Positions 16,881 through 61,529 of a stretch of DNA of 64,000 nt are shown here, piece after piece. The notes under the pieces were generated by a model, which saw only the letters and a list, made by a program, of their open reading frames with translations, had not been told where the DNA came from and did no database searches. The DNA is from the human T2T-CHM13v2.0 reference genome, Homo sapiens, in NCBI RefSeq assembly GCF_009914755.1, contig NC_060935.1; one strand, 5' to 3'. Position 1 is the stretch's first letter. Each line of letters starts with the position of its first letter. A program made the translations under genes and the position numbers.

Positions 16881-17287
16881 ACCCCTTGGCCCAAGTTGGG
16901 CTTGAGTTGTGAACCCTCCCTTCTCCCCTTTGCAGTTTTGCGCCCAGGCTCATGTGGGATCCTCCTGCCCTTTGCCCTTTGGTCTAGGGGTCCAGGCTAT
17001 GCTTCCCAGCGCGGCCTCCTGGCCTGAGCTGCTCTAGGCTCCTGACCCCATGGGGCTGGTGGCTCCAGTCGTCCCCAGGACCAGCCCGGGATAGAAACGG
17101 CATTTCCTCTTGGCCGGGCTACAGCTGTTTTTGTTGTCTGTGTTCTCAAGTGCTTCCTCTGGGGATGGCAGGGAGGGTAACTAGACTCCGCGAGACCCCC
17201 ACTTGCCCTCTCCGCCGCTCACTCCTCTTCCCCTGTTTCTTTGATCCTCTTCCTGTGCTGGTCCCACCTCCTGCGTCCCAGGACAGA

Positions 17288-17406
17288 ATGACCGAGAACA
17301 TGAAGGAGTGCTTGGCCCAGACCAATGCAGCCGTGGGGGATATGGTGACGGTGGTGAAGACGGAGGTCTGCTCACCACTCCGAGACCAGGAGTATGGCCA
17401 GCCCTG
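17288..17406 (+). CDS. PRDM11: PRDM11 coding exon A (start codon; [11 protein letters not shown]...EYGQP)
   Basis: Acceptor ccag|GACAGAATG (exon starts 17282), ATG at 17288, donor TG|GTGAGG after 17406. The peptide matches the PRDM11 N-terminus as I recall it. GAC AGA before the ATG is in frame, so an upstream exon could extend the N-terminus. Confidence 0.93.
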
Positions 17407-17766
17407 GTGAGGCCCCTGTGTGGGAACTGGAGAGGGAGAAGTGGGAGTGGGAGGTGCCTGGGCTCGGTTGGTTGGGAACCCTGGGAAACGTTCTCACTCC
17501 TTGCCCACCTTCCCTAACCCTGCTCCCGGCAGCTCCTGGGCGCAGGCTCTAGAAAAATCCAAGCAGTGGCCTAGGGAGGTCTGTGCTCGCATCTCAATCC
17601 TCCAGTTTTTCCACCACCTCCTGCACTGAACAGCAGGCTGGCTGGGACTCCTCTGCCCACCCCACATCTTCTCGGTCTCCTGGCCAGGTCCCCAGCTTTT
17701 GTCCCCACTGGGCTCTCACTCTCTGATGACTTCTTTGCTTTCTTTGCGGGCCTCTGCCCTGGCCAG

Positions 17767-17870
17767 CTCTAGGAGACCGGACTCCTCGGCCATGGAAGTT
17801 GAGCCCAAGAAACTGAAGGGGAAGCGCGACCTCATCGTGCCCAAAAGCTTCCAGCAAGTGGACTTCTGGT
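17767..17870 (+). CDS. PRDM11: PRDM11 coding exon B ([35 protein letters not shown])
   Basis: Acceptor ccag|CTCT, donor T|GTAAGT. Phase 2 in, phase 1 out, consistent with both neighbouring exons. Confidence 0.93.
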
Positions 17871-18381
17871 GTAAGTGGAGCTTGGGGCTCTGGGCTGCTC
17901 CTCCCTTCACCCCCATCGCCCCATTCCTGGCTAGGGAATTCACAACAATGCTACTAAGATAGGTCCTCACCTGCAATATACCAGGCCCAGGTCCAGGCCT
18001 TGGTTCGTCATCATCATTAGCCATCCAAATGGCTATTGTTGGCCCCATTTTCCAGATAGCACACTGAGTCTTGGTGAGGGTTAAGTATCCCACGCCTCGA
18101 GTCCTCTGGCCCAAAGGGGTACAGTTGCACTTGGACTCCAAAGCCATGCTCTTTCTTCCAGTTTTTTAAAACTTGAGACAAAGGTAGCTGCTGGCCTCCT
18201 TGACGTAGGCAGGCCTGTTCTTGGAGCCCCCAGGGAGAGTATGGGTTATTGCTACCGATGACCCTGGGGCCTGCAGCTGGCTGTCCATGAGTGGGCCTCC
18301 TGTCAGCCCCTCTACCTCCCCCATGGGGGTCTTACCTCCCTGCAACAACTGAGGCCCTCCCTTCTCTTTCCATCCCTCCAG

Positions 18382-18644
18382 TCTGTGAGTCCTGCCAGGA
18401 GTACTTCGTGGATGAATGCCCAAACCATGGCCCCCCGGTGTTTGTGTCTGACACACCGGTGCCCGTGGGCATCCCAGACCGGGCGGCGCTCACCATCCCA
18501 CAGGGCATGGAGGTGGTCAAGGACACTAGTGGAGAGAGTGACGTGCGATGTGTAAACGAGGTCATCCCCAAGGGCCACATCTTCGGCCCCTATGAGGGGC
18601 AGATCTCCACCCAGGACAAATCAGCTGGCTTCTTCTCCTGGCTG
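18382..18644 (+). CDS. PRDM11: PRDM11 coding exon C: zinc knuckle (CESC-x7-CPNH) and start of PR/SET domain ([12 protein letters not shown])
   Basis: Pyrimidine tract + ccag|TCTGT, donor CTG|GTGAGT. FGPYEG is a hallmark PR-domain motif, and the CxxC-x7-CxxH knuckle precedes the PR domain in several PRDMs. Confidence 0.95.
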
Positions 18645-18999
18645 GTGAGTGTGCCCTGGGCTATTCATGGGAGAGGTTGCCAAGAAACATGGAAGGAAAC
18701 CACCAGGGGGAGCCATACTGGCCCAGCTTGGCCCCAGAACTTTTCTACCATCGCTTCTGGACCTGTCGATGATGGATCTTGCTGTCCCCTGGCCCCGGCT
18801 GAGTGGCTGCAACGCTTGGTGTCCAAGGGCAATGCTGAGAGCACCCACCTGGCAGTAGTCAGCAGATCAGGAAATCACCAAGCAGAACTCAGGGCAATTT
18901 CCCCATGAATCCTCATGTGTGTGTCTGGTGGACCATTGGGCAGTATTGAACCAACCGATCTTCTAGAGTGGGTGACTCGGAGCTGGCCTTTGGGGATGC

Positions 19000-23362: not shown

Positions 23363-24376
23363 TGGGCATGGGTTTTTGGCCTCCACTGGGGAAAAGCAGG
23401 CGTGAAGAACGGCTCTGCCTGCTCTGCTGATGGGTAGGCCAAATGGTGGGAGAGTACGGGGAAGGTGGGGTGAACAGTGGTGCTGATTTTTGGACCAAGA
23501 TCTAGAAGCCCCATATCCTAAATAAACTGCCCTCATTTGTCAAGTCCTGTCCCAAAGCCATACTGGATATCATCTTCTTTGGACCTTCTGCCTGCCTGCA
23601 AAAGCTCTGGCCCCCATTCAGCACAACACATTTCCCTCCACACTCCCTCCCTCAGTATATGCACTCTACTCTGTAGAAATGATGGTGGTGGTCATGACAA
23701 GCATAGCTGTTAATGTTTATTGAGCACTTACTATGTGTCTGGGTCTGTGCTCAGTGCTTTATAGCATAATCTCATCTGATCCTAACAACGCTCCTGTGAC
23801 ATAGGTATTATTCCATCCATTGCACAGCTGAGAAAACTGAGGCCTGGAGAGGATGAGTCATTCTGCACAAAGCTAAACAGCTGGTGAGTCACTGAGCTGG
23901 GGTTCAAACCTGTGCAGTCTGACTCCAGAACCTACCCTTCTCATTCCGCCTCTTGGCCCTCTAGCCTCCCTTACTTAGCACGCCTCTTCTTACCTCCTTG
24001 CCTGGGTAGACTCTATTCTACTCATTCTTCCTGCCCAGCACAAGTTCCCTCTTTGTCTTCGCTTAACCTGGAGGAAAGCTGGCCTGACTTTGGGCAGAGT
24101 GGTACAAGGCATGGGCCTGGGTCATAATGGACCGAATGGCCATTTCCACTCCACAACTCTCCTTCGTGGCCTGGCTGACTTGGCAGGAGTTGGACACTCA
24201 CCTCTGCCTGTCTAGGAAAGACATGCCCCTTGCTCTGCTTTTTCATCCTATTGGAAATTATAAATGCTGTGATTCATTGCCAAGATCACCCAGGCTACCC
24301 TCAGACACTGCAGGCCAGGAACCATGCTGCTGGCACGAGGCATTTGGGGGTGCTGCGCAGCCATGTGGTTTGGTAA

Positions 24377-40236: not shown

Positions 40237-40304
40237 ATTGTGGACAAGAACAACCGCTATAAGTCCATAGATGGCTCAGACGAGACCAAAGCCAACTGGA
40301 TGAG
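40237..40304 (+). CDS. PRDM11: PRDM11 coding exon D ([23 protein letters not shown]), middle of PR/SET domain; last exon shared by all predicted isoforms
   Basis: tttctctttcttccag|ATT acceptor, AG|GTGAGC donor (phase 2). Contains the PR motif IDG...NWMR. Confidence 0.95.
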
Positions 40305-42919
40305 GTGAGCCCTGCTCTGCTGATGTCCCGGGGGTCTTGCCTGGCCTCTGGAAAGGAGCCAAGGGAGTGTGTTGGACCTGTGGGAGCTCCAGTGGTGGAG
40401 ACTTCTGGAGGCTGCCGTTTGCAGGGTTTGGATGCATCTAGCTCTGAAGGACCCACCTTTTCCCCTAGGCCTCCATCAGGGGGCTCTAGAGGACGGCGTG
40501 TGGTCAGGCCGTTGGGATGCAGGGACCGCTCGGGCTGCTCACTTGCCAGTGTGTCTGGAGGTCCTGGGCCCCAGGCTCCTGGCAGCATTCCTAGGGAGGA
40601 GGAGGAGACTGTCCCCCACCTAGGACTGTGACACCTCAGAGCAGGCTCCTGCAGGGGTGGTGTGAGAATCGTCCCAGTGCAGCCCCAGCAGTTGTTTAAA
40701 CAGCCTCCATGGAAGAAAGGGCTCTGACAAAGTCTTCAGCTCAGTTTTTGACAGTGTTGCTGCCTATGTTTGAGTACTTTGAAGTGTCAACTTTACCCTG
40801 TTCCGGTGTTTGGGACAGAATTTTGCACCAGAAGTTTTCTTAAATGCCAACCAGAGGAGGCAGGAGACTGGCCCCAGGCAGGGTCACCCAGGGATGGCTG
40901 AGCTGAGCCCAGAACCATGGGTCCAGCGTGATGCTGATGGTCTGTGCCATGTGCGAGGGACTCTGCCTGGTGGGGTTTGTGGACAGGGGTGGGAGATCTG
41001 ACATGCCTTGTTGCCTGCTTGGTGGCCTCTCTCTGGGACCTAGGAGCACTGGCTGGAGATTTGGATCTGGGTGGGAGGGGAAGGAAGCCTCAGATGTCTG
41101 GAGTCAGGGGCACAGCCACACCATGGGCCTGGGGCCCTCTGCCGGCATTTGCACAGTTTTCTGACCCATGAGGCCTTGAGGCTGATGGTGGGATTGTACT
41201 TGGAGAGAGGGCAACTTCCTAAAAAGGAGTGTGCTGTCTTAAACTCGGAGACTTTCTAAGCAAATGAGGAGAAGCAGGTTTGAGGCGTAGAGTATGTGAT
41301 GAGGGCTCCTGTGTCCTTCCCAGTGGCTCCACTGCCCACCTATACTCCTATCAGAGAGTGGCTGAGCAGCAGTTCACACCTCCCAGATTACTTTAGCGTT
41401 CGCCCTCTTATGGGTTAGGGAAGGTGTTCTCATTGCCGTTTGATGGGTGCAGAACAGAGGCTCCAGAGACCAGCGGGCCCCCTGCCTTGCAGTGTGGAGA
41501 ATAGCACCGACTGCCCCCAACCTCCTTGGACACAGCTGATCTGACACTGCCCTGAAAGTGGCCCCAGGGAGGTGGCTTGACACCCTGACTGCCTTCTCTT
41601 CTCACTGCCACGGGGTCCAGGTCAGCTGAGCACTTACAGTTCATCACCTGTGTACTGAGCACCTAGTTTGAGTCAGACTGTGAAATGGGTACCAGGGTGG
41701 ATCACCCAGCCCTGCCCCACCACACCCCATGCCCCACCCCCGCTGGCCCTTCCCGGGCTCACACCTCCTACCACAGAGGTGACTTTCCAGTGTAGTTTTT
41801 GCACTGAGGCACAATGTGCTGCAGAGGCCCAGATGAAAGAGGAGGGGTTCGTTGACATGGGCCTTCAAAGGGGCCAGGATTGTGTCTGGGGACACTGGGT
41901 TGTGGTGTCTAGTCAGGCTGTTGGGCGGCTGCTCAGTTTGGACCCCAAGCCTGTGCTGCTGTGCTGCCTGCCCTGTGGCTGCAGCCTGGCTCCAGGCAAG
42001 CAGGGGAGACCGTGCGTGTGTCCACTTGGGAATCAGGCTTTCTGTGCTATTGCTTTTAAGGCGCCGGGAGCTTTGCCCATAGAACCGAATCTGTTCCACT
42101 CTTTCACCCATCTCTGATCTTTCCCCCTGGGGACAAGGCCTTCTCAAAACCCCAAAAAAGGGGAGCTATCATCCAAACTAACTTATCTATCCTCTGGCAC
42201 CCCGCAGATTGTGACTTAATTGGGCTGGGGATTGGCCTTGGGCCTTGGTATTTTTAAAGCTAGTGATTCTGATGTGCCACTAGCATTGAGAACCACTGCT
42301 CTGTACAGATCTTCATGCCACAGTGGTCAAGCTGAGAGCAGGGCAAGGTCTTGCTTAAGAGCATACAGTCAGGGTAGCAGAATCAGGATTTGAACTCCTG
42401 GCTCTGTAATCCTAGGTCGGTGTTCTTCCTGCTTGTGCACAAGGGACCAGGTGAAGCGTGGCTTCCTGGGCCTGGATGGGCACTGGTGAGCAGGGGTTTG
42501 GGGGTTTCTGCTACTGCCACCTTGCTAGCATGGTTTCTGTCCTGTTCTGCTCCCAGCCTGTCCTGATTCAAGATGGCATCTGGGTAGTCACAGCTGGTGG
42601 GCTCTCATCTTATGACCACTCAAAGAGCAGGTTTGGGTTAGGGATGCAGTTTGTTGCCACAGAGACGCCCCTCCTGTTGCTGTTGGAGTGACGGGAAAGC
42701 TGTTAATCCTGGGAATCCTCCTTTCCCTTCATGTCCAGCTTCCGTGGTGTGGCTCTTTCTGACTTGCAGATGCTCTCCTTTGCACTGTCATGGCACCGCT
42801 TGGGGATGATTGAATGGACTCAGTTAGTTTCTTAACAAAATTAATGGTGGGCCAGGAGGCGAATGGGCACTGTCGTGTTGAGCTTATCTTTATGACAGCC
42901 CCATCTAGGTGATCTGTCT

Positions 42920-43110
42920 GTGGTGGTTCTCAACCGAGCACTATTTTGTGCCCCTGGGGGCATTTGGCAAGGCCAATGTTTGATGGTTGGATGCTATCAG
43001 ATAGAAGCCAAGGATGTTGATAAAATCCTGCATTACACAGGACACCCCTTCCCCCCAACAAAAAATTATCTAGCCCCAACTGCCAATAGTGGCAAGATTG
43101 AGACACCCAC
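42920..43110. mobile_element. MER20 (hAT-Charlie MITE)
   Basis: gtggttctcaacc...ttttgtgcccctgggggcatttggcaa...tgccaatagtggcaagattgaga. Confidence 0.7.
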
Positions 43111-44393
43111 ATTAAGTCCTCCTGATAGCCCTGGACAGTGACACTAGAATTGTCACCCTAGTTTTATGGAGAAGGAGACTGGGTTCACACGAGTCCCATG
43201 GCTTGGCCCAAGGAGACTCAGTCTCTAGTTCCAGGTCTAGTCCCATATTCCTGCCACCATCTTGGACTGGGTAATGAGGCCCCCAGCCTTCTTCCCATCT
43301 TCTGGGCCCTGGTGTTTTGGGTGCTTGAGTAGGAAGGTGAGGGCTGAAGGATGTTGGTGCCGCCGGCCTTCCCCTCTTGGTTTCAGAAGGAAACCAAGGA
43401 GTGAATGCGCTCTGAGCTTTCCTCCATACCCTCATGTCCTCTCTTGGGTGGATTTTTTAACCTTTTATCACTAGTTAAAAGGGTGACAGAGCCACGATGT
43501 GGAGAAATCAAGTTCCAAAGCCAGAGCAGGAGCCAAGTGGGATGGAAGGGCCATGCTGTGCCCCTTGCCCAGGGCCTCTGGCTGCTCAGTTGAGAGGGAA
43601 TCCCAGGTCCCCCTGGTGTCCACCAAAGTGGAACTTGACTCCCTCAGGACAGTCGTGGGCTTCTCAAATTCTACCAAAAAGTCACAGCAGCCCACCCCCG
43701 AAGAAAGCACTCCCATGGGAAGGAAACCTGTTTGCCTGCACATATGCAAAGGTGGGGGCTTGGAGAACTGACCGGGACGGGGAAGGGGAAGAGAGCCACT
43801 AGGCAGAATAAGCTTTCTGTGGCCACACCCTAATCATGGCATTGTCACTGCTACACCCAACGGTAGCCAGTGTAAATAGTTTCCCTGGTTACGTATTCTT
43901 CCGAGCCATTCATTCAGCTGTAGGGCTGTAGGTAAATATCGCTTTATAGAGGCAATGGGCTAATCCTAATTTCAATAAGATCCTTTACTGCTATCTTTAA
44001 GAGATTTTAAGCCCCTTACATCATGATGTGTTTCCCTCCTTAGTAATAAACCCGAAGAGTTGTGGTTGTTATTCTGGACAGGGAGAATAAGGTGTGAAAG
44101 GTTGAACATGAACTGCCCTAGCTCTCACCGCTAGTAAGAGCTAAAGCAGGCCCTGAAACCAAGGCCTTCGACTCTGAGTTCAGTGCTCCCTCCCATGTAA
44201 CGCCGTCTCTTCTTTCCACCCTCCCCTCCGAGGAGTAGTGGAAGGGACCTCTCAGTAGGAGGAGGGTGTGGTGGGGGCCAGGTTGCCCCAGGTGCCTCCT
44301 GGCTCCCCAGCTGGGGGCCAGCAATTAGGAAGGAGAACCACCTGCATTGACGGTCATTTACCCAATTGTGCTTTGTGGGATATTCAACCCAAG

Positions 44394-44815
44394 GAATGTG
44401 GCACACCTGGCTGAGCGTAAGAGGAAGCCCAAGTTCTCCAAGGAGGAGCTGGACATTCTTGTCACAGAGGTGACCCACCATGAAGCAGTGCTCTTTGGGA
44501 GGGAGACCATGCGGCTGTCCCATGCTGACAGGGACAAGATTTGGGAAGGCATAGCCCGGAAAATCACCTCCGTCAGCCAGGTGCCCCGCTCCGTCAAGGA
44601 CATTAAGCACAGATGGGATGACATGAAACGGAGGACCAAGGACAAGCTGGCCTTCATGCAGCAGTCCCTGTCGGGCCCTGGGGCCGGGGGCCGGGCCCCC
44701 ACCATCGTGCTCACGGCCCACGAGAGGGTCATCAAGTCGGCGCTGCTCACGGCCCGTGCAGGGCGCGGCTTCCCCAGGGCGGAACTGGATGGCACCGACA
44801 GCCCTTCGACCAGCT
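44394..44815 (+). CDS. Intron-nested coding exon with a Myb/SANT-like DNA-binding domain (Myb_DNA-bind_5/MSANTD/NAIF1 type); predicted alternative PRDM11 exon
   Basis: Peptide RKPKFSKEELDILVTEV...LFG...KIWEGIARKI...RSVKDIKHRWDDMKRRTK fits the family pattern. Acceptor ccaag|G AAT is phase 2 (matches donor 40304), with a weak pyrimidine tract. Donor AGC T|GTGAGT is consensus. CpG-rich, codon-like composition. Confidence 0.85.
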
Positions 44816-45183
44816 GTGAGTATCACCAGTCCCCCCCGCCACCCAGCCGGCTGCCTGCCCCCCAGCTTACAGTCCACAGTCTCCCACCGACTTTCCCTCT
44901 GGTTCTCTCCTGTCCCTCTCTGTCCAGCCCACTCTTTCCATCCTCCCCTCCTTCTCCCACTCTTCTCCTCTCCATCCCTTTTTGCATTCATTCTCGAATA
45001 TTTACTGAGCATCTCCGTGCCAGAGCCGTGCTAGGAGCTGGGAAGACAGCTGTGTGTAAACCCCACGCAGGCCCTGCTCTTGGGGAGACCCTGGACTCCT
45101 AGGAATAAACCAACGTTAAATAATTGCACGAGTAAACTGGAAACGAAGGGATGGAGGACACAGGAGTCCAGGAGGTCCCGAGA

Positions 45184-45339
45184 GCAGGGCTGACTTCATG
45201 AGCATGCAACCTGAACAGTCACAGGGGCCGCGGGGTTTCAGGCTCTGCTGTCGCCATCTGGACATTCTTCATAGTTTTTGAGCCAGGGGCCCCACGTTTT
45301 CATTTTGCATTTGACCCTGCAGGTTATGTAGCAGCTCTG
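45184..45339. mobile_element. MER91-like hAT MITE
   Basis: cagggctgacttcatg...ctgctgtcgccatctgg...ggggccccacgttttcattttgca...ttatgtagcagctctg. Confidence 0.55.
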
Positions 45340-47226
45340 TCTGAGAGTTAAGGAGTGGGTAAAACTGGCTCCACTGGGGACTGGGGAGGGCTCCCTGAAG
45401 AAGTCCAGCGGACTAGGATGTGAAGAGTAAGAGTTAACCAGGCCAGGCAGCAGCGTGGGGCGCGGAGAAGGGGAGGGGAGGCGCGCAGGCAGAGAACAGC
45501 ATGTACGAGGCCCCGCATCAGGAAGGCGCTTGGCACGTTCCAGGAACAGTGAGAAGCCAGGAAAGCCCAAGTGTAGCAGCGCGGGGGAGGGGGCTGGAGA
45601 CGAGGCGGCCAAGCTGTGAAGGCCCGGGCCGGGCCATGGAAAGATCAGTTCCTTTCTGTGTCTGGTCCTGACTGCTTTGTTCCTCTATTATTACTCCCCT
45701 GCCTGAGCCACGCTGCCTGCCCCCACTTTTCTGTGTGCTGCCTCTCAGCTCCCTCTCCATCCTCCTGGCTGCTCCGCCACCCGCTCCCCACCCCTCTTCT
45801 CCCTCTGTACTTGTCCCTGCCTTTCCTCTCTACTTCCTGTGTCTCACATGCACTTTGAAGCCAGGGCCCCAGCGGCCGAGGCGGGTGTCCCTTGGGGCTG
45901 GAGTTCTAGTTGGGGCTCAGCAGAAGGGGGAGCACTAAAGGCCTCCGCAGGGACTGCAACCCTTCCTTTCCACTTCTGCACATCTCCCCCGTGCCCCGCC
46001 AGCTGCAGTCCCCACTAGAGGCCGTCTGCCTGACCGGCTCGTGAGTGGTGGGAGCCAGGCAGGAGGGGCCCCGGGGAAGCAGCCGTGGCTCAGCCCATGG
46101 GAAGGTGCTTTGCAAAGACTCACTTGCACCTTCCCTTCCCGGGCCCCCTGCCATTGTGATCCACTTGCTTCCTGTTTGGCTGGGGCTCCTGACAGGTGGC
46201 AGTTCACAGAGTCAGATGTTTAGGACTGGAAAAGAACATGGAGACCATTTAGTTCAACTTCCTTGCAATGCAGAAAGTAAGCTCTGAAAACCAAGGTGGC
46301 CCTGAGCTCAATTCAGAAGCAGGACTTGAACCCGGGTCTGCTGGCTTCCTGTGAATCAGTGTTTTCCTAAGTCTTAAGAGGATTCCACCCCGTGATAAGA
46401 AAAAATGGGGGGGTCAGCATCCAGTAAAGCCTGTTCCCTGCATCCTGCTCCGCTCACCCCTCCATCTCCCTGAGACTGAATGTAATGAGGCCACCAAAGG
46501 TAACCTGGGCTGGCAGGGAGCCCGAGTGTGCCATCAGGCAGAGCCCGCTCACCCCCATGGCAGGCTCACAGCCCTCCTTTTCCTGGCAGTGGCCAGCTGC
46601 GGCAGCACTCGGCCAGGGGCTTGGCAGAACGGGGACCTGGGAGGGAAGGAGCAGCATCACCTCGCCGGGTCTCACTCCTTCCAACACTGGCCATGCTAGA
46701 CAGGTCTCTGGGATCTCAGGGGATGGCTGCTGTCCCACCAAACACTGCCAAGAGACACAGGACTCTTACCAAGCTGGCCCAAGTGAGCCCCCAGGACCCC
46801 TGGGAGGCATGAGGTAACTGTAAGATAAACCTGTCTGTCCTCCCCATCACCTTCCTGGGGGGTGGTTCTGAGTTGAGTCCGCAGATCCAGGCAGGGAGGG
46901 CTTGCCTGTCAGTAGGGTCAGCCCATACATCATTTAATCCTGCCACAGGGATCAGCCCATACCCTTGGTCACCAGAAAGCAGGACCCACATGTGCAGAGG
47001 CTGGGCCCCCTCCCTGTGTCCGGCTGCAAGGAGCAGTCTGTCCGATGGCCCCTGTGCGGTCAGATGCTCCTGGATGGGAGCACGATGTGACTGAACTGGA
47101 AGCCTGCCTTGGGGGACAGGGGGACAGCAGGGCTGGTTGCAGAGGTGGCTCTCCTGCTCTGCACTGTCCTGCCAGTTTCTTCAGCCTGTCAGCATGTGCT
47201 GCAGTGATTTAAAGATGCAGATTCCA

Positions 47227-47432
47227 TATTAGTAGTCTTTTATCCCTCACCCCCTTCCCACTCTTCCCCCCAAGTCCGCAAAGTCCGTTGTATCAATCTT
47301 ATGCCTTTGTGTCATATGGCACAGTGTATACTGCTTGGGTCATGGGTGCACCAAAATCTCACAAGTCACCACTGAAGAACTTCCTCATGTAACCAAACAC
47401 CACCTGTACCCCAATAACTTATGGAAAAAAAA
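47227..47432 (+). mobile_element. Short L1PB 3' end with 5' inversion, TSD TGCAGATTCCA
   Basis: Antisense L1PB 3'UTR piece (~47227-47317) joined to a sense piece ending in an A-tail. TSD at 47216-47226 and 47436-47446. Confidence 0.8.
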
Positions 47433-48004
47433 GTGTGCAGATTCCAGCAAGGCCACAAGATGGCCCCAAGCAATGCAGACGTGGCCTCAGAAAGTCTGGT
47501 GCTCAGAGGGCCAAGAGCGTCTTAGTACCTTTAGGCAGGTGCCGCTCCTTCAGCGTTACAGAGCACCTTCATGTTTGTCATCTTGTTTATGACTCTTCTT
47601 AACAACCCAATTAGGTAGCCAAGCGGTTCGATGTGTAGACAGGGCAGTCGTTATCATTGCAGAAAGTGAGGTGCAGAGAGATGAACTGACTGCTGAGGTC
47701 AGGAGCTGCTGGGTTGGCACGCAGCCGGTGGGCCACGGTCTCCAAGTCCCCTGGCCTGGGCTCTTCCCCACTAGAATAGAGCTGTTCCGTTGAGAGGAAG
47801 AGGAACTTCCCCCCAGGGATGCTGGGCCCACGCACCTCAGGGATTTGGGGAACGTGGATTTCTCTATGGGCGGGGGCCAAACTAGACCGCAGGGTGGCAG
47901 GGCAGGGGGATACTCAGGTGTTTTTCAGGGGCAGGGCCAACCCCTGGGCCTCCCTCCTTCTCCCTTTTGTAACCACTTTTCCATCTTTGTTTCTGTCCCC
48001 CAAG

Positions 48005-48579
48005 ATGATGAAGATGAGGAGGCGCCTGGGCCCTCAAGGCAGCCTCTTCGGGTGCCTCTGCAGCGGTCTCCGGAGGAAGAGGCCCACCTGGCCAGGCCCG
48101 CCCTGCTCCGTTCATCCTCCTCCTCAGACCAGTCTGAGACGGTGGGCCCCAAGCCAGAGGCCCTGCCCCATCCCTCGCCCCAGGCCCAGGCTGCCTGCAG
48201 GACCCCTCGGCCGCACCCCAGCCCACCCACCACGGGCCTTGACTGGCAGCTCCTCCACGTCCATGCCCAGCAGACCGAGGTGTTCCGGCAGTTCTGCCAG
48301 GAGCTGGTGACCGTGCACCGGGACATGGCCAACAGCATGCACGTCATCGGCCAGGCCATGGCCGAGCTGACCAGCCGTGTCGGTCAGATGTGCCAGACGC
48401 TGACAGAGATCCGGGATGGGGTTCAGGCATCTCAGCGGGGGCCAGAAGGGGCAGACCCTACGGGCTCCACTCCCCAGGCCACCCAGGCCCAAGCCCCCCT
48501 GCCAGAGCCCCCACCAGCTTCCCCAGCATCAGCCCCCACACGGACTACCAGGTCTCGGAAGAGAAAGCACAATTTCTAA
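48005..48579 (+). CDS. Terminal coding exon of the Myb/SANT-like isoform: acidic/Pro-Ser linker, amphipathic helical region, C-terminal basic RTTRSRKRKHNF
   Basis: Long pyrimidine tract + cccaag|AT GAT. Phase 1 matches donor 44815 (T+AT=Tyr). Open to TAA at 48577-48579. AATAAA at 50247. Confidence 0.8.
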
Positions 48580-49433
48580 CCCAGCTAGTCTGCACTAGGA
48601 GGAAGAGTCATGGAGGAGGGATGTCTGGCCTCACAACAGGGGCCAGTCTTTCGTGTCCAGGAACAGGATCGATGACCCTTGTAGGACACTGGGGGCGCTG
48701 TTACCTCCTCACCGAGCGCAGGTCGCTGCCCTGTGGTCTAACAGAGCATGTATTCAGACCCGCACCCTCATCTTTGGCGGATGCTGAAGATGCAAGAAAA
48801 GCCACCTGCTTGATGCTTGCTTGGCCTGGAGATCGTTCTCCTCTTGGTCTGTGTCCCGTGGCGGCAGGCCTTGCAGGGAGGGGGGCGCAACAGTGGGGAG
48901 CATCCGAATGGAGTCCCACTTTCCAACCTTGGGGCTGCTGCATCGGCCTCCCACATGTGACCTCCCAGGCCCTGATGCTGCTTCTTTTGAAGGGGGTGAG
49001 GCCTGATGGGCAGGTCAAGTCGGTCCTTCAGGGAGGGGTCTACCCTCCCTTGCCCGGGGGTGGTGCCCGCCTTGGCCCTCCGCTTGCCCTTGTGCGCGTG
49101 CTCAGCTGCTGTGCTTGCCTTTTTTGGAGTGGGGAGAAGAATGGGATGACGTCGGAGGAAGGAAAAGACTGTCTTGCATTCATAGAGAGCACTTTATGCT
49201 TTTCCTCGCCCTTGCAGAGTCTGGGTGGTCTCAGTGGGGGCTCAGGACAGTCAGCTCAAGACAGCCAAGTCAGGTATTATTATGATCATTTTTATCATCA
49301 TCATCTGTATAAGACAAATGACACAGCCAGTTAGTGAGAGGGCCAGGACTGGAAGCCAGGGTATCGGTTTTCCCAGCTCCCCTGTCAGAGGCCAGATCTG
49401 GAGTAGTGGGAAGAGGACGCAGGGGGCAGGTCT

Positions 49434-49477
49434 TGCCCCTTGCCAGGCCTCTGCCCCTTGCCAGGCCTCTGCCCCCT
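49434..49477. repeat. 18-bp tandem repeat (TGCCCCTTGCCAGGCCTC), ~2.4 copies
   Basis: Seen directly; lies in the predicted 3'UTR of the Myb isoform. Confidence 0.8.
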
Positions 49478-50246
49478 GTATCTCTGCTTCTGCCTCAGCT
49501 GTCCTGGGTGAGGTGGGAGGCACCTAGCATTTAGCAGGTGATTCTCCCACCCTGCCCTGGCTCTATGGCTCATAGCCAGTGGCTTGGAGAGGCAGGGCCA
49601 GATCTCAGGAGTGGAGGGCAACCTCTTCCCTGGCTTCTAAAAGAATCCAGAGCCCAGTGGGGCTCATGTCCCATTCCAGGTTCCAGCATGCCTTGCCTCT
49701 GCTTGCTCGGGCTGCCTACGCACTAGCTACATACACCTCTAGCTTCATGTTTCATGTTGGAGTGTGGGGAGAAAACTGGGTTCTTAGCATTAGAGAGGGA
49801 AGTGGCAGGTGGCAGATACAAGCTTAGCTCTGACCTGGGTGCACCTCAGCTCTGTGTCCTTTTTTTTCCCTGACCTGAAGCTGACCCCAGCAGAAGTCCC
49901 CCAGCCAACCCCTCCACCCAACAACCCCCCACCCTCCCATCCTGCCCCCAGCCATAGTGGGAGCTGGGAGGATTGCAGCATCTAGTGCCTTCCAAGGCTG
50001 TTCCTGGAGCGCTGCTTGTAAACCCAAGCCAAGCTTTGTCCCACGTAGGGAGAATGGAAGGTGACTGCAATGTCCCTGTGCCTTTGGCTCCATCTCCCCA
50101 TTCTGTGGTTCTTTGGGGGTTCCTGCTTCCCTCAAACTGAACACTCTCCTGTCCAACAGCCTGATGGCTTAATTATTGCCTGGAATTGCCCGGCCTCCGA
50201 TGCTGGAATCAAAGATTGCCTTCCGAAGTATTTTTGTTAAGATGGC

Positions 50247-50252
50247 AATAAA
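50247..50252 (+). terminator. Polyadenylation signal for the Myb/SANT-like isoform
   Basis: First AATAAA I could find downstream of the stop at 48579. Followed ~45-70 nt later by a T/GT-rich tract (tctttctttggtgtgtattctctttc). Confidence 0.6.
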
Positions 50253-52916
50253 AAGAAATCAATCTCACTCTTTGAACACACCCAGTGTCCAGGATCTTTC
50301 TTTGGTGTGTATTCTCTTTCTTCGTTTCCTGTGAAAACCTCGAGGACCCCAAAGCAGGGGTTAGATGTTTAAGGAAAAGCAGGTTGGTGAGAAGGGCTCA
50401 AGTGCCCCTTGATTTCCCTGATTCTATAAACTGCCAGATTCCCTGTATCCAGCACCATGCCAGGCCCTCGGAGGAAAGGAAGGGCATGCATGCACGAAAC
50501 CACTCAGTTATATTTCATTTCTCTGCTCAAAAGTGAGGTGTTGCTAAGTCAATTTTACCTTTTGTTCCCTAAAAGTAAGCGAGAAGTTCTGGAAAAACAA
50601 TCACCGTTTCGGACAGGAGGCTCTAGAAGGGTCAGGGGCTGTCCATGTGCCAGTGCACTTTAGGGGCCACCTGGAGGCATGACCCTCCCCACCAATCCAG
50701 GTGTCTGTGTGTCTGGCACTGGCAAGGCTCTGCCCACCTAGATCTGAGGCTTCTCAAAGTAACCAAAGCTGCCTCCTCTGCCAAGAGGAAGCCTCCTCAC
50801 CTGTGCATTGCCCTGGCTTAATACCAGTCTCAGAGAGCTTCTCTCAGGCAGGAAATCCCCTAGTCTTGCCCACAGATCCCCTTTCTAGAAGGTTCTAACT
50901 TGCCATCCTCCACAGTTCTTGGCCAAAAAGCATGGCCATAGAAATGGAGGACTACCCAATTTCCGAGAGATGCAAAGATGTCGTGAAACCATTCCCAGGG
51001 CCTTCTCTCCCAAGGTCAATGTATGAAGCAGTGACTGGCTGGCTGCTCTCTCTCTTCCTGGGGAGGGAAGGAGCCAAATTGGAAGCTGTAAAACTGAAAT
51101 GGAAGTCAGAGCAAAAGGGACAGTGAGGACTTGTCAACTTGGGATGGAAAAGATTTTCAGTTTCTGTTTCTTGGCTTCAGTGGGGATTGTTGGGCTAGCA
51201 CATTAAAACAGGAAGAGGAAACTTGGGTGAGAGACAGAAATGAATTGGAAGAGGGAGGCCTCTAGCCATGACCAGGTGACCATCTGGTGGGTGGATGTGT
51301 GACCCAAAGCCCCTCCTAGCCCGGAGACCTATGCATGTGAGAACACAGAGCCCAGCCTCTTCTCAGTCGGTCTTTTCCTAGTTCTGCCTCCTTAACTGGG
51401 GCAGCTTCCTTTGTATTGAAGATACCCACTATGCAATAGTGTCTGAGCCTGGCCTAGTCAATTCCCTCCAGCAAAATGGATGCCCTGTGTTATGTTTTCT
51501 TTGCGTTAGAAACAATAGTCATGTGCTGACCCAGCTAGAAAATATGATGCACTTGATAAGACACAGTGGGTGAGGTCTGAGAATTGTTGTCTTAGTACTT
51601 ACCTATCCAGTCCCCAAGGTCAGCTGGGAGGTTGGAATAAAAACAATCCAGGATCATCATGACAGGTTTAGTCCAGAGCTCTCCACCGCCATCAGCAGCA
51701 CCACCACCTTCCCCTTGATTGCTCCAAAGGTCCCAAATTCTGTGGGTTGGAGTTGAAATGCCTCAATAAGCACTAGCATTTGCAGAACAGTCTCAGCCAG
51801 GCATTCTCTGTGCCTTCTCTCAAGAGGTAGTGACCTGGTAACACTTCAAACCTCCTTGAAAGAGCTGCTCAGCCACAGTGGATAGATTTTGCCCCTCCTG
51901 GTAGCCTTCCACTCCTTGGGGAGGGCTTCTGATTTCTGCAGCCATGTAATGAATGGAACAGGCACAGTTCTTCATAAAGGGGTTGTTGTGAATGGGGACA
52001 GAAGGGTTCTGGGGGGTGGTCGAGCCAGCAGGTGTTAAGGCAAAACACTTAAAAGCAGGAGATCTAATCAGAGGTAACAGGTCTGGGGACCTAGCTGGCT
52101 TCATTTAGCTTTACCTCTTAAATGGTATAACATAAACATCTTGTCAGGGGAATGGGTTGTGATTCACCAAGAGTTGCCATATACATTGTATTTCAAATGC
52201 TAAGTTTCAGAACAACAAATACAACAAAATCTGAATAAGCATTGATCTGCCTTTGAAAATACTTTGTGATTTATACAACGCCTTGAGGTTAGCTTTCCAA
52301 ATATTGATTCTTGATGGATAGAAAAAGACCAGAAGATGGAAAGTTAAATTGACTTGAGTCTTTCTAAACCTTTTGACACACCCTAGAAGTTGCTCTTTTG
52401 AATAAATAAATCCCAGATAGGAATGTATTTCTCATCTAGCTTTTTCTCTTGATGTCAAGTGTCAGAGAAATAATTCTAGCTTTTAGAGGTTGGTGGTTGT
52501 TTAGAAACTGGAAGAAAAAAAGGAGAAGACAGTATTCTCCAATCATAGTGCTATGATTCAAGTGAGTCTTGTGAGAAAAAAGACGAATGAATGGTTTCCC
52601 TTTTGTATCTGGGAGCAGGAAAGTTTGGAACAACTTCTATTCTGTGCTAACCGCAAGGTTGATTATTTTTGGATGTCAAATCCTAGACTCTCACTAAATT
52701 GGGGACTGGAAATATTTTGCATATTCAGAAGAAATCTCAGCTATGGAGAAAAGACTGACTCACAGTTGTAGAATTGAGATTGGGAATTATTAATTTGGAG
52801 TGACTTCTCTCACTCCAAATTAAAGGAAAAGGGGCTCTTTTCCTTTCTCTTAAGTCCTTTGTTAATAACATCCTGGCTGGGTGCGTGGAAATCACCCTGT
52901 GGTCTTCACTACTCAG

Positions 52917-55104: not shown

Positions 55105-55292
55105 GTACGTGGTCATCTCCCGGGAGGAGAGGGAGCAGAACCTGCTGGCGTTCCAGCACAGTGAGCGCATCTACTTCCGGGCGTGCAGGGACATCCGGCC
55201 TGGGGAGTGGCTGCGGGTCTGGTACAGCGAGGACTACATGAAGCGCCTGCACAGCATGTCCCAGGAAACCATTCACCGCAACCTGGCCAGAG
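55105..55292 (+). CDS. PRDM11: PRDM11 coding exon E: C-terminal half of PR/SET domain ([40 protein letters not shown])
   Basis: ccag|G TAC acceptor (phase 2), G|GTGAGT donor (phase 1). Contains the EQNL, IYFRA.RDI.PGE.L.VWY PR motifs. Confidence 0.95.
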
Positions 55293-59751: not shown

Positions 59752-60443
59752 GAGAGAAGAGGTTGCAGAGGGAGAAGTCTGAGCAGGTTCTGGATAACCC
59801 AGAAGACCTGAGGGGTCCCATTCATCTCTCTGTGCTGAGACAGGGCAAAAGTCCCTACAAGCGTGGCTTTGATGAGGGGGATGTACACCCCCAAGCTAAG
59901 AAGAAGAAAATTGACCTGATTTTCAAGGATGTTCTGGAGGCCTCACTGGAATCTGCGAAGGTGGAAGCCCACCAGTTGGCCCTGAGCACCTCACTGGTCA
60001 TCAGGAAAGTCCCCAAATACCAGGATGACGCCTACAGTCAGTGTGCAACAACAATGACCCATGGTGTGCAGAATATAGGCCAGACCCAGGGGGAGGGGGA
60101 CTGGAAGGTCCCCCAGGGGGTCTCCAAGGAGCCAGGCCAATTGGAGGATGAAGAAGAGGAGCCTTCATCATTCAAGGCCGACAGTCCTGCCGAGGCCTCC
60201 CTTGCATCTGACCCTCATGAACTTCCCACCACCTCTTTTTGCCCTAACTGTATTCGCCTAAAGAAGAAGGTTCGGGAGCTCCAGGCAGAATTAGACATGC
60301 TTAAGTCTGGGAAACTTCCTGAGCCCCCCGTATTGCCACCACAGGTACTGGAGCTCCCAGAGTTCTCGGACCCTGCAGGTAAGTTGGTTTGGATGAGATT
60401 ATTGTCGGAGGGCAGAGTACGCAGTGGGCTGTGTGGAGGGTAG
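59752..60443 (+). CDS. PRDM11: PRDM11 coding exon F. Internal donor after 60378 is used for the long isoform; read-through to the stop at 60443 gives the 477-aa short isoform
   Basis: ttccttcctag|GA acceptor, GCA G|GTAAGT donor at 60378/60379. ORF has a KKKK basic patch and CPNC followed by a heptad-like segment. Summed CDS 1434 nt = 477 aa + stop. Confidence 0.93.
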
Positions 60444-60602
60444 CCTAAAGCTCTCTGTGGAAACCACCTTCCGGGAGACCTGAGGAGTGTAACGTGGAGG
60501 CGGCTACCTCCGTGGGTGGGAGCCCAGGTCCTCAGTGTCTCTGGCAGACCCATCGGCAGCTCTGCCAGGTGCTCCATGTGTTGCCCTTGTATCCTCCTTG
60601 TC

Positions 60603-60608
60603 AATAAA
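60603..60608 (+). terminator. Intronic polyadenylation signal for the short PRDM11 isoform
   Basis: AATAAA 160 nt after the stop at 60443, followed by GT-rich tgtgtgctgtgttcttg at ~60631-60647. Confidence 0.65.
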
Positions 60609-61529
60609 GGAAGTTCCGCTGCAGAAGGGGTGTGTGCTGTGTTCTTGACCCGTTGCCTTTCTCTGGTACTGGTGTCTTACCCCAAAGCCCAATTTCTAAA
60701 CCCAGTCTTTCTCTGTCCCCAGTCTCAAGCAGGGTGTCCCACTGGAGAGATCTCTTGGCTTCCCTAACTTAGTCCAGGAACACAGCCTTGTTCTTCTCTT
60801 CCTGAATCTCTGTCCTGCCACACATGGTCCCAGTTCCCTAGCCTGGAGTTCTGGAAGGATGGAGAGTGAGGGGATCCAGGCCATTCACCTGCATGGCTTT
60901 GCCCTATTCTGTTGGCTACCTGGATTTCTAGAGTTGGTCGACAACTAGGCAGGTGTTCTAGTTCATATCTGCAGCTGAGGGAGACTGTTTACATAGCACT
61001 TACTCTTTTAACCACATCCCTTAGCTCAGAATGAGGTGTTTCTTGTATTCAAAGCATGCGTCTGAACTAAACTGCATTTTGATCCTGAAATCACTTGGGG
61101 CCATATCCAAGATGCCTTTGTTCACATTAATGAAGGGCAAATGAATCCCAAGTCCTTGCCATATAACTTTGGAATGTGTGATGTGCTTTTCCTCCTCCAT
61201 TAGATCTACTCTCCTAGCTTGTGCTGTCCAGTTGATAGGGGGCATTTAAATCCCTCAAACACCCACACATGGAGGGCAAGGGCAGGCAGCCTGAAATCTG
61301 GTGGGTGTGACAAGGCAACCGTGGACAATCACAGGGAGAGTAAAAGTCACATGGGCAAGCAGGAGTGCTCATAAACTAATTCTGGGCTGGGATTCAATCC
61401 ATCATAGGCTTCCACGGACTTCTGTTTCCCATGGTGTGGCACCTACCTTCCAGGAGTGTTTCCTGTGGATTTTGGAAAAGCCTGTTTTCTCCCCCAGGTA
61501 TAAATGTTTCTTTCCCATTTGTTTTTCAG

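What the first reader, a model, noticed from the sequence alone, without database searches (positions are those of the whole stretch)
44394..48579. Hidden two-exon Myb/SANT-like module inside the PRDM11 intron predicts a 516-aa PRDM11-Myb fusion isoform
Seen: two intact ORFs lie in the intron that splits the PR/SET domain. The donor at 40304 (ATG AG|gt, phase 2) joins the acceptor at 44394 (aag|G AAT) to read NWMR-NVAHLAERKRK. The donor at 44815 (AGC T|gtgagt, phase 1) joins the acceptor at 48005 (aag|AT GAT) to read PSTS-Y-DEDEE, ending at TAA 48579. Total CDS 554+422+575=1551 nt = 516 aa + stop. There is no in-frame ATG before the domain (the ORF track's 'M' is TTG, in-frame TAG at 44326), so the domain needs an upstream exon. 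Knowledge: RKxxFSxEELxxLVxEV...LFG...W..IA..I......RS...I..RW.DMK is the Myb_DNA-bind_5/MSANTD pattern of NAIF1, TSNARE1 and Harbinger transposon Myb-like proteins. PRDM11 is usually described as the PRDM without C2H2 fingers. Inference: alternative splicing gives PRDM11 a sequence-specific DNA-binding domain while truncating the PR/SET fold. I do not recall this isoform being characterised, though automated gene predictions may include it.
Basis: partly seen in the sequence, partly recalled or inferred. Interest (0 to 1): 0.95.

Follow-up and report, generated by a model that had tools for sequence, protein, structure and literature searches.

The report
Annotated PRDM11 isoform carrying Myb domain
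Two alternative end exons inside a human PRDM11 intron encode a complete, very strongly conserved Myb-like DNA-binding module of transposon type; the exons are already in gene annotation, but the protein has apparently never been studied.

Summary
Exons 44394-44815 and 48005-48579 have AG/GT borders and join annotated PRDM11 exons 1-4 into a 1551-nt ORF of 516 aa plus TAA. Exon 5 carries a Myb_DNA-bind_5 domain (Pfam E 3e-21). The isoform keeps only positions 6-71 of the 123-position PR profile.

It is not hidden. RefSeq lists both exons (hub table). The same PR-Myb junction occurs in 74 of 135 related proteins, from frog to human. Six unnamed short contigs from other mammals carry both junctions. 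One 2022 paper names PRDM11 as a putative Harbinger Myb-derived gene.

The 77-aa Myb core is identical between human and echidna. The two exons together look like a whole captured Myb-like gene: trihelix, a long helix and a basic end. Its closest human paralogue is a chr19 locus that I recall as MYPOP. The predicted fold is closest to the Zeste DNA-binding domain.

Human junction reads, protein and DNA binding were not testable here. Verdict: real and ancient, already annotated, functionally unstudied. Interest is moderate.

The parts
17288..18644 (+). PRDM11 coding exons 1-3, shared with the canonical isoform: N-terminus, a weak PR zinc-knuckle match, and PR profile positions 6-48
   Evidence: Hub annotation. 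The ORF is checked. Pfam PF21549 and PF18445 hit the exon-3 peptide.
40237..40304 (+). PRDM11 exon 4 (PR profile positions 50-71). Its phase-2 donor GAG|GTGAGC is the branch point between the canonical and the Myb isoform.
44329..44393 (+). Last 65 nt of intron 4. It is open in the exon frame. Its in-frame translation (…PIVLCG-I-FNPR) recurs in proteins from mammals, birds and lizards whose models or contigs read through it. Human has no ATG here, and an in-frame stop lies at 44326-44328.
44394..44815 (+). Alternative exon 5 (422 nt, enters in phase 2, leaves in phase 1), encoding the Myb/SANT-like domain plus a linker helix
   Evidence: The hub table lists it as an exon of other PRDM11 transcripts.
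44422..44652 (+). Myb_DNA-bind_5 (trihelix-type) domain core of 77 aa
   Evidence: Pfam E 3e-21. The genome scan places it at C11:45366422-45366652. 77 of 77 residues are identical to echidna P0058. AF2 pLDDT is about 87-92, and the fold matches the Zeste DNA-binding domain.
48005..48579 (+). Coding part of the alternative terminal exon: an acidic and Pro/Ser-rich stretch, a long helix, a basic C-terminal end, and TAA
48229..48444 (+). Conserved long amphipathic helix (exon-6 peptide residues 75-146)
   Evidence: AF2 predicts one helix at residues 404-470 of the orthologue, pLDDT 86-94. Heptad a/d hydrophobic occupancy is 0.67 against 0.40 overall. It is homologous to the C-terminal helix of the distant Myb-like proteins P0134 (E 6e-10) and P0146 (E 3e-5).
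48549..48557 (+). Candidate internal phase-2 donor CAG|GTCTCG, with the exon ending at 48551. It would turn the module into an in-frame cassette that continues into exon 55105. It is weak in human and is not in the hub's exon list.
   Evidence: The same junction appears in yak, donkey, alligator and pigeon protein models.
48580..50280 (+). 3' UTR of the alternative terminal exon, with AATAAA at 50247
   Evidence: Hub annotation gives the exon end at 50280. The poly(A) signal was found.

Best explanation
The two exons are one complete, domesticated Myb-like gene lying in the intron that splits the PRDM11 PR domain. The gene is of the type encoded by Harbinger transposons, and its closest human paralogue is the chr19 locus I recall as MYPOP. 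PRDM11 uses it as an alternative pair of 3'-terminal exons.

Shown here:
- Splicing 40304>44394 and 44815>48005 gives a 516-aa protein.
- Residues 1-184 are the PRDM11 N-terminus, with a weak zinc-knuckle match and only the first ~71 of 123 PR positions.
- A trihelix Myb/SANT-like domain follows, then a disordered acidic/Pro-Ser stretch, a ~67-residue helix and a basic end.
- The stop lies in the last exon, with its own poly(A) signal.
- The module is single-copy in the genome and far more conserved than its linkers.
- The same junction is modelled in tetrapods from frog to primates.

Inferred:
- The isoform lacks a complete PR fold.
- It acts through the Myb domain as a DNA-binding or chromatin-adaptor form of PRDM11.
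- The long helix serves self-association or partner binding.
- The basic stretches serve nuclear import.
- The capture arose when an acceptor formed just upstream of the module's own start codon. Most placentals later lost that Met, which would make the human module dependent on the PRDM11 exons.
For: - Splice sites and ORF.
- Skipping either partner exon breaks the frame. Exon 5 without exon 6 stops at aa 370, exon 6 without exon 5 stops at aa 185, and exon 5 joined to exon 3 stops at aa 168.
- Pfam PF13873 E 3e-21. PR split across exons.
- Of 133 proteins at E<=1e-3, the 120 listed are 73-99% identical over exon 5. Many are named 'PRDM11 isoform X' and carry both PF13873 and PF21549.
- 74 of 135 proteins examined carry the NWMR|N…RKRKPKF junction.
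- Six of 24 unnamed 'lgn' clusters hold PR, Myb and exon 6 on contigs of 1.6-3.5 kb, which is too short to be unspliced if their introns resemble human ones.
- Identity to human over 45 orthologues is 0.96 for the Myb domain, 0.92 for the PR N-half, 0.76 for the helix and 0.67 for the disordered part. Over the 16 birds and reptiles the Myb domain stays at 0.93.
- The Myb core is 77/77 identical to echidna, 74/77 to tuatara and 68/76 to frog.
- Fold: Zeste DNA-binding domain bound to DNA, 5cqq, TM 0.73-0.74 and rmsd 2.4-2.8 A; Z 8.3. GT-1 trihelix Z 8.1.
- Exon 6 is homologous to the C-terminal helix of distant Myb-like proteins that have an N-terminal Myb domain.
- In the human genome the nearest paralogue of exon 5 is C19:48728856-48729182 (41% identity, E 7.5e-19). 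Exon 6 has no paralogue; the next match has E 0.62.
- In a tree of Myb domains, the PRDM11 domain falls in a 33-row clade (support 95/86) that also holds the chr19 clade.
- Most non-placental sequences (and some rodents) have Met two codons after the acceptor. Most placentals have Val plus a 3-residue insertion.
- There is no CpG island upstream of 44394 (observed/expected <=0.41), against an island at 16000-16749.
- MYPOP gave a DNA motif in the Codebook study (passages of PMC11601247).
- PRDM11 is listed as a putative Harbinger Myb-derived gene (passage of PMC9392472).
Against: - No human RNA-seq, ribosome-profiling or proteomic data could be examined. Human use of junction 40304>44394 rests on the hub's RefSeq exon list, whose transcript types I cannot see.
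- Both acceptors are AAG, and 44394 has a poor pyrimidine tract.
- Nine of the 24 unnamed 'lgn' clusters carry the Myb exon joined to exon 6 without PRDM11 exons. Most of these read the intron-4 tail, including a 99%-identical one, P0002. Intron-retaining or internally started transcripts are therefore at least as common in that source.
- Many pipelines model the module as a stand-alone 'MYPOP-like' protein of about 335 aa.
- Harbinger origin was not tested against named transposon proteins.
- AF2 gave pLDDT below 50 for the PR half both in the truncated isoform and in a split-PR cassette model. It therefore says nothing on whether the truncated PR half is unfolded.
- DNA binding is inferred from fold and family only.
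Confidence: 0.8

Rival explanations
1. Nested gene. The module is mainly an independent Myb-like gene inside the PRDM11 intron, transcribed from its own start within intron 4 and translated as a protein of about 330 aa. The PRDM11 fusion would be a minor by-product.
For: - 47 of 135 related proteins start at or just before the Myb domain. Many are named 'myb-related transcription factor, partner of profilin-like'.
- Most sauropsid, monotreme, marsupial and frog sequences, and some rodents, keep a Met two codons after the acceptor.
- Nine of 24 unnamed contig clusters join the Myb exon to exon 6 without PRDM11 exons.
- P0126 (58% identical) has a different, non-PR N-terminus.
- The hub lists RefSeq enhancer features across 44920-49480.
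Against: - Human has no in-frame ATG between the stop at 44326 and residue 39 of the exon peptide, which lies inside the Myb domain.
- Most placentals have Val at the ancestral Met.
- The RefSeq exon starts exactly at the acceptor 44394 (hub table).
- There is no CpG island upstream.
- Contigs that read the intron tail may be partly spliced pre-mRNA.
- 74 of 135 proteins and 6 of 24 short-contig clusters carry the PR junction.
Confidence: 0.15
2. Cassette isoform. The module is also, or instead, spliced in as an internal cassette. An internal donor just before the stop (48551 in human) would join it to exon 55105. The result would be a long protein whose PR domain is split by a 323-aa Myb insert and which keeps the hAT-like C-terminus. 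I recall a formal analogy with the MYND insert in SMYD SET domains.
For: - The human reading through 48551 stays open, giving 4503 nt and 1500 aa.
- The same …TTR|YV(I/V)ISREE junction is modelled in yak P0014, donkey P0026, alligator P0073 and pigeon P0074.
- Thrush and finch models use an earlier donor (…QR|YVIIS).
- Pfam finds both PR halves flanking the Myb domain in three such models.
Against: - The human donor CAG|GTCTCG matches 5 of 9 consensus positions, and its intronic part is poor.
- The hub's exon list has no exon 48005-48551.
- These are gene models that may have been chained to maximise the ORF, and I could see no transcript evidence for them.
- A matching phase has a 1-in-3 chance by itself.
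- The AF2 model of the donkey cassette gave pLDDT below 50 for both PR halves, which is inconclusive.
Confidence: 0.08
3. Splicing noise in human. The exons are a conserved relic used in other vertebrates, but in human they give only rare, non-functional transcripts.
For: Both acceptors are weak AAG sites. No paper in the searched library describes the protein.
Against: - The human ORF is intact over 330 codons.
- The Myb core is identical to echidna and 96% identical on average across 45 orthologues.
- The stop lies in the terminal exon, so I infer no nonsense-mediated decay.
- RefSeq annotates the exons (hub table).
Confidence: 0.04

Closest known systems
MYPOP (name recalled; the locus found is G000 C19:48728856-48729182)
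   Same: - It is the closest human paralogue of the Myb exon (41% identity, E 7.5e-19).
- It falls in the same 33-row clade in the domain tree.
- NCBI names stand-alone models of the PRDM11 module 'MYPOP-like'.
- MYPOP yielded a DNA motif in Codebook (passage).
   Different: - MYPOP is a stand-alone gene, not the alternative end of another gene.
- The PRDM11 helix showed no clear match to the MYPOP-like protein P0148 (6 of 22 aligned residues identical).
TSNARE1 (Myb-like domains fused to a syntaxin/SNARE protein)
   Same: - It is also a host gene carrying Myb_DNA-bind_5 domains, and the 2022 paper lists it with PRDM11 as Harbinger-derived.
- Relatives with PF13873 plus Syntaxin_2/SNARE appear among the hits (P0131, P0136, P0139).
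- The human chr8 copies are 30-35% identical to the PRDM11 Myb exon.
   Different: - The host partner and the domain order differ.
- The human chr8 Myb copies fall in another clade of the tree.
- The gene name for the chr8 loci is recalled.
NAIF1 and the MSANTD1-4 family (Harbinger Myb-like derived genes)
   Same: - They share the Pfam family, and the published view is that they are domesticated Harbinger Myb-like proteins able to bind DNA and protein (passages of PMC9392472).
- A NAIF1 cluster appears as a weak look-alike of exon 6 (score 0.78, a lead only).
   Different: - They are only 27-28% identical to the PRDM11 Myb exon (C9 and C11 loci; gene names recalled).
- They are stand-alone genes.
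Drosophila Zeste DNA-binding domain (PDB 5cqq) and the Arabidopsis GT-1 trihelix (2jmw)
   Same: These are the best structural matches to the predicted Myb domain. Zeste gives Z 8.3, rmsd 2.5 A over 70 residues, and GT-1 gives Z 8.1. For Zeste, Foldseek gives TM 0.73-0.74. Both are sequence-specific DNA binders solved with or for DNA.
   Different: - Sequence identity is only 13-26%, and the sequence-level PDB search gave E 0.33.
- Fold likeness does not show that the DNA contacts or the specificity are shared.
Host-transposase fusion genes formed by splicing into an intronic transposon ORF (model recalled from Cosby et al. 2021; paper not seen here)
   Same: An upstream host exon splices into an acceptor next to the start of an intronic transposon-derived ORF. 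This gives a chimeric protein with a transposon-derived DNA-binding domain.
   Different: - Here the captured ORF is the Myb-like accessory protein type, not a transposase.
- The capture truncates a host domain.
- I could not check whether PRDM11 is in that paper's list.

Membership tests
Pfam PF13873 Myb_DNA-bind_5 | Profile score above the curated cut-off (21.7 bits) over most of the 78-position model | tested here: met
   75.6 bits, E 3e-21, profile positions 1-77 of 78. The genome scan gives 76.8 bits.
Myb/SANT-like trihelix DNA-binding fold | Three helices with the fold of solved Myb/SANT/trihelix DNA-binding domains | tested here: met
   AF2 predicts helices 202-214, 229-246 and 253-278 at pLDDT about 87-92. 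Zeste 5cqq gives Z 8.3 and GT-1 gives Z 8.1. These are predicted structures, not solved ones.
Myb/SANT-like trihelix DNA-binding fold | Sequence-specific DNA binding | not testable with these tools
   Inferred only from the fold match and from the MYPOP motif reported in Codebook.
Harbinger transposon Myb-like protein-derived genes | Phylogenetic nesting among Myb-like proteins encoded by Harbinger elements | not tested
   No named transposon-borne sequences were on hand. The claim rests on one sentence marked 'data not shown' in PMC9392472.
Harbinger transposon Myb-like protein-derived genes | Whole-protein architecture shared with stand-alone Myb-like proteins (N-terminal Myb domain, C-terminal helix, basic end) | tested here: met
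   The exon-6 helix matches P0134 (E 6e-10) and P0146 (E 3e-5), whose Myb domains are N-terminal.
Harbinger transposon Myb-like protein-derived genes | Binding to a Harbinger-type transposase or to HARBI1 | not testable with these tools
   No test was possible. HARBI1 is not in the window.
PRDM family (PR/SET domain protein) | A complete PR domain | tested here: not met
   The isoform keeps PF21549 positions 6-71 of 123. Positions 73-121 lie in the skipped exon 55105-55292. The gene is PRDM11, but this isoform is not a complete PR-domain protein.
PRDM11 isoform (as opposed to a separate gene) | Shares PRDM11 exons 1-4 in one open frame through a used splice junction | tested here: met
   Open frame. 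74 of 135 related proteins carry the junction. Six short-contig clusters from other mammals carry PR plus Myb. RefSeq exon borders agree (hub table). Human junction reads themselves were not seen.

The most novel reading that the evidence does not exclude
PRDM11 may be a gene that switches, by choice of 3' exons, between two different transposon-derived back ends on one N-terminus. One is an intronic Harbinger-type Myb-like gene, giving the 516-aa form with a broken PR domain. The other is a hAT-transposase-like C-terminus, giving the canonical form with an intact PR domain.

In placentals the Myb module appears to have lost its own start codon, which would make it an obligate fusion. The Myb form may be the sequence-specific DNA-targeting form of PRDM11 that past knock-out and binding studies did not separate from the canonical one. 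In some species the module may even be spliced in as a cassette that splits the PR domain.
Probability: 0.3. Interest if true: 0.65.

Novelty: already known. Interest (0 to 1): 0.4.

Why it matters
Passages from the reviews I read describe PRDM11 as the PRDM member without zinc fingers (PMC4009873) or simply as 'PR domain + zinc fingers' (PMC13203297). None of those passages mentions a Myb-bearing form.

The Myb core has not changed between human and echidna and is about 90% identical to frog. Conservation at that level argues for a function at least as constrained as the PR domain itself.

If the isoform is expressed, three things follow. Work on PRDM11 in lymphoma and airway inflammation should separate the two protein forms. 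Knock-outs of the shared 5' exons remove both forms. The Myb domain gives a testable route by which PRDM11 could reach DNA.

It is also a clean, old example of a host gene capturing a transposon accessory-protein gene by splicing.

Tried and rejected
1. Historic 511-aa isoform. I suspected that the UniProt 511-aa PRDM11 listed in PMC4009873 was this isoform. It is not. Reading through donor 60378 gives 477 aa from the same start. That equals 511 aa minus the 34-residue N-terminal extension named in that table, and that form keeps the whole PR domain.

2. AF2 as a test of whether the truncated PR half folds. The PR half had pLDDT below 50 in the 514-aa orthologue. Both PR halves were also below 50 in the donkey cassette model, which contains the whole PR domain. 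The low confidence therefore probably reflects the shallow alignment of 49-58 close relatives. It says nothing about truncation or about the cassette.

3. Complex prediction with two copies of the exon-6 helix (residues 70-150 of alignment A2). The job was never accepted because the queue was full. Self-association of the helix remains untested.

4. Sequence search of solved structures. The Myb exon gave only Zeste at E 0.33. Exon 6 and the last canonical exon gave nothing.

5. Pfam on the exon-6 peptide found no family at E<=0.1.

6. ESM Atlas with exon 6. The top cluster is unnamed (0.91). The NAIF1 and Myb_DNA-bind_5 clusters score 0.76-0.78, which makes them leads only.

7. Fish orthologues. 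No named fish protein appeared in the lists. Those lists show the best 120 of 133 and the best 120 of 151, so this is weak evidence of absence. P0126 is unnamed, 58% identical, and has its own N-terminus.

8. Papers. Fog et al. 2015 (Blood) is not held. The PLoS One Prdm11 mouse paper had nothing on isoforms.

9. Internal CpG-island promoter. None lies upstream of 44394. This does not exclude a promoter without a CpG island.


Full report
**1. Observation**

- Exon 4 ends at 40304 (GAG|GTGAGC).
- The next exon starts at 44394 behind …cccaag and ends at 44815 (GCT|GTGAGT).
- The last exon starts at 48005 behind …cccaag, and its frame closes with TAA at 48577-48579.

Joined to the annotated coding parts of exons 1-4, the two exons give 1551 nt and 516 aa with a single terminal stop.

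The frame of exon 5 is open back to a stop at 44326-44328, with no ATG in between. The first in-frame Met of the exon-5 peptide is residue 39, inside the Myb domain.

The pairing of the two exons is obligatory for an open frame:
- exon 5 followed by the canonical exon 55105 stops at aa 370;
- exon 6 without exon 5 stops at aa 185;
- exon 5 joined to exon 3 stops at aa 168.

An AATAAA at 50247 fits the annotated exon end at 50280 (hub table).

**2. What the exons encode**

The exon-5 peptide matches Pfam Myb_DNA-bind_5 (PF13873) over positions 1-77 of 78, with E 3e-21 and 75.6 bits against a cut-off of 21.7. The exon-6 peptide matches no Pfam family.

The PR domain (PF21549) is spread over three exons: exon 3 holds positions 6-48, exon 4 holds 50-71, and exon 55105-55292 holds 73-121 of 123. 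The isoform therefore keeps a little over half of the PR profile.

I ran an AlphaFold2 model of a 514-aa orthologue (P0007) with 49 aligned sequences.
- It gives a confident three-helix Myb domain (helices 202-214, 229-246, 253-278; pLDDT about 87-92).
- It gives one confident helix of about 67 residues (404-470; pLDDT 86-94).
- Everything else is low.

The Myb part is closest to the Drosophila Zeste DNA-binding domain solved on DNA, 5cqq. Foldseek gives TM 0.73-0.74 and rmsd 2.4-2.8 A over 72 columns. VIA-align gives Z 8.3 and rmsd 2.5 A over 70 residues. The GT-1 trihelix follows at Z 8.1.

The long helix aligns with many coiled-coil chains at Z 6.5-6.9, which is generic. Its best heptad register has hydrophobic residues at 0.67 of a/d positions, against 0.40 overall.

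**3. It is a whole captured gene, not just a domain**

The exon-6 helix is homologous to the C-terminal helix of two distant Myb_DNA-bind_5 proteins: P0134 (E 6e-10) and P0146 (E 3e-5). In both, the Myb domain lies N-terminal to that helix. P0146 also ends in a basic stretch.

Exons 5 and 6 together therefore have the layout of a complete stand-alone Myb-like protein.

In the human genome the module is single-copy.
- Exon 6 finds only itself; the next match has E 0.62.
- The nearest paralogue of exon 5 is C19:48728856-48729182, at 41% identity and E 7.5e-19.
- Two chr8 copies follow at 30-35%, then a chr9 and a chr11 locus at 27-28%.
- By position and sequence I recall these as MYPOP, TSNARE1, NAIF1 and MSANTD4. 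Those names come from no call.

A tree of 108 Myb domains (77 columns, so resolution is limited) places the PRDM11 domain as follows:
- with P0126 (support 95/86);
- then with a syntaxin/SNARE-Myb pair and P0134 (98/92);
- inside a 33-row clade (95/86) that also holds the chr19 clade.

I picked 30 of the 150 listed representative hits and scanned them with Pfam.
- All 30 had PF13873.
- Some were fused to C2H2 fingers, KRAB, syntaxin/SNARE, CARD or other domains.
- None had a PR domain.

**4. Conservation and taxonomic spread**

A search restricted to longer proteins found 133 relatives at E<=1e-3. The 120 listed are 73-99% identical over exon 5.

Many are named 'PR domain-containing protein 11 isoform X…', are about 505-530 aa long, and carry both PF13873 and PF21549. 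They come from placentals, koala, echidna, birds, turtles, lizards, tuatara and the frog Ascaphus; one alligator model is of the long cassette type described in section 6.

I examined 135 proteins: the 120 plus 15 further ones.
- 74 carry the PR-to-Myb junction.
- 47 start at or just before the Myb domain.
- 9 have other upstream sequence.
- 5 lack the motif I searched for.

Mean identity to the human isoform over 45 orthologues of 495-540 aa:

| Region | All 45 orthologues | 16 birds and reptiles |
|---|---|---|
| Myb domain | 0.96 | 0.93 |
| PR N-half | 0.92 | 0.89 |
| Long helix | 0.76 | 0.69 |
| Acidic/disordered stretch | 0.67 | 0.41 |

The 77-aa Myb core is identical in human and echidna. 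It is 74/77 identical in tuatara and turtle, and 68 of 76 aligned residues are identical in frog.

The all-against-all representative search gave 1140 hits at E<=1e-3 and 12 at E<=1e-30. After the orthologues, identity drops sharply to P0126 (58%) and then to 30-50% relatives. No fish protein was named in any list, but the lists are truncated.

**5. Isoform or nested gene**

For fusion:
- The RefSeq exon begins exactly at the acceptor (hub table).
- Human has no start codon for a stand-alone protein.
- No CpG island lies upstream. Observed/expected CpG is <=0.41 at 43750-44499, against an island at 16000-16749.
- Six of 24 unnamed 'lgn' clusters from other mammals hold PR, Myb and exon 6 on contigs of 1.6-3.5 kb. 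The human exons span more than 29 kb, so I infer that these contigs are spliced transcripts.

For a nested gene:
- Nine of the 24 clusters join the Myb exon to exon 6 without PRDM11 exons. Most of them read the intron-4 tail, and one is 99% identical to human (P0002).
- A further nine clusters read on into flanking intron.
- Most non-placental sequences (and some rodents) have a Met two codons after the acceptor (…N-M-A/T-E-R-K-R-K). Most placentals have Val there plus a three-residue insertion.

My reading is that this Met was the module's own start codon. The acceptor arose four bases upstream of it, and most placentals later lost the Met. In human the full Myb domain would then be reachable only through the PRDM11 exons, barring non-AUG initiation. 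This is inference.

The last ~45 nt of intron 4 translate in frame to a peptide that recurs from mammals to birds and lizards. That could reflect splicing signals or old coding sequence. I could not tell which without other genomes.

**6. Cassette models**

Twelve long models place the module inside the PR domain and continue into the PR C-half and the long C-terminus.
- Yak, donkey, alligator and pigeon models use a donor just before the stop (…TTR|YV…).
- Thrush and finch models use an earlier donor.
- Three others read non-homologous sequence.

In human the equivalent donor at 48551 keeps the frame open, giving 1500 aa. It is weak, CAG|GTCTCG, matching 5 of 9 consensus positions, and it is absent from the hub's exon list.

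An AF2 model of the donkey form was uninformative. I treat this as a low-probability reading for human.

**7. What is known**

Seven full-text searches linked PRDM11 with Myb, Harbinger, transposase, isoform, SANT, hAT, or MYPOP/MSANTD/TSNARE1. They cover about 8.1 million CC-licensed PMC papers and 0.36 million bioRxiv preprints.

They found one relevant statement. Etchegaray et al. [quoted passage not shown] The evidence is marked data not shown, and the authors say the genes 'require further analysis'.

Passages of PRDM reviews from 2013, 2020 and 2026 do not mention a Myb form. [quoted passage not shown]

Subscription papers, including Fog et al. 2015, could not be read.

**8. Verdict**

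The feature is real, ancient and under strong constraint. It is already present in RefSeq and in many automated annotations, and its likely transposon origin has been noted in one sentence in print.

What is missing is any study of the protein. I rate it as already known in kind and in annotation, with moderate interest because an apparently overlooked, highly conserved DNA-binding form of PRDM11 is directly testable.

Noticed in passing
window 61530-63694: The last canonical PRDM11 exon (720 aa) matches zf-C17orf113 above the cut-off (E 6.8e-9, 35.9 bits against 29.5). Below the cut-off it matches the hAT C-terminal dimerisation region (E 0.0026) and DUF7822. The sub-threshold hAT match recurs at the same place in alligator, yak and thrush models, and one pigeon model is named 'zinc finger protein 862'. 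The canonical C-terminus therefore looks hAT-transposase-derived, which would give PRDM11 two alternative transposon-derived ends. No paper in my searches says so.
   Followed up: partly
window 59752-60623: Reading through donor 60378 into the annotated longer exon gives a stop ending at 60443 and a 477-aa protein. Together with a 34-residue N-terminal extension, this fits the historic 511-aa 'canonical' UniProt PRDM11 from which the 'no zinc finger' description comes.
   Followed up: partly
window 23850-23883: Including this annotated 34-nt alternative exon between exons 3 and 4 shifts the frame and stops translation at aa 170. It looks like a poison exon.
   Followed up: no
window 44329-44393: The 3' end of intron 4, translated in the exon frame, gives a peptide that recurs almost unchanged in mammal, bird and lizard proteins whose models or contigs read through it. 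That is unusually strong conservation for an intron tail, and its cause is unknown (splicing control or old coding sequence).
   Followed up: partly
P0126 (unnamed protein, 351 aa): This is the nearest relative outside the named tetrapod set (58% identity over exon 5, 57/77 in the Myb core). It carries the Myb domain and the helix behind a 57-residue N-terminus that has no PR similarity. In some lineage, then, the module is joined to other upstream sequence or is a separate gene.
   Followed up: partly
window 16000-16749: The only CpG island among the stretches scanned (16000-19249 and 42000-51249) has GC 0.78-0.81 and observed/expected CpG 0.68-0.75. It covers the annotated alternative first exon 16557-16688.
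   Followed up: no
G000 C8:95561454-95561693 and C17:28468504-28468668: The human genome holds two further PF13873 matches that I could not name. One is an open 141-aa frame on chr8 (74.6 bits). The other is a chr17 match with an internal TGA (32.8 bits) and may be a pseudogene.
   Followed up: no
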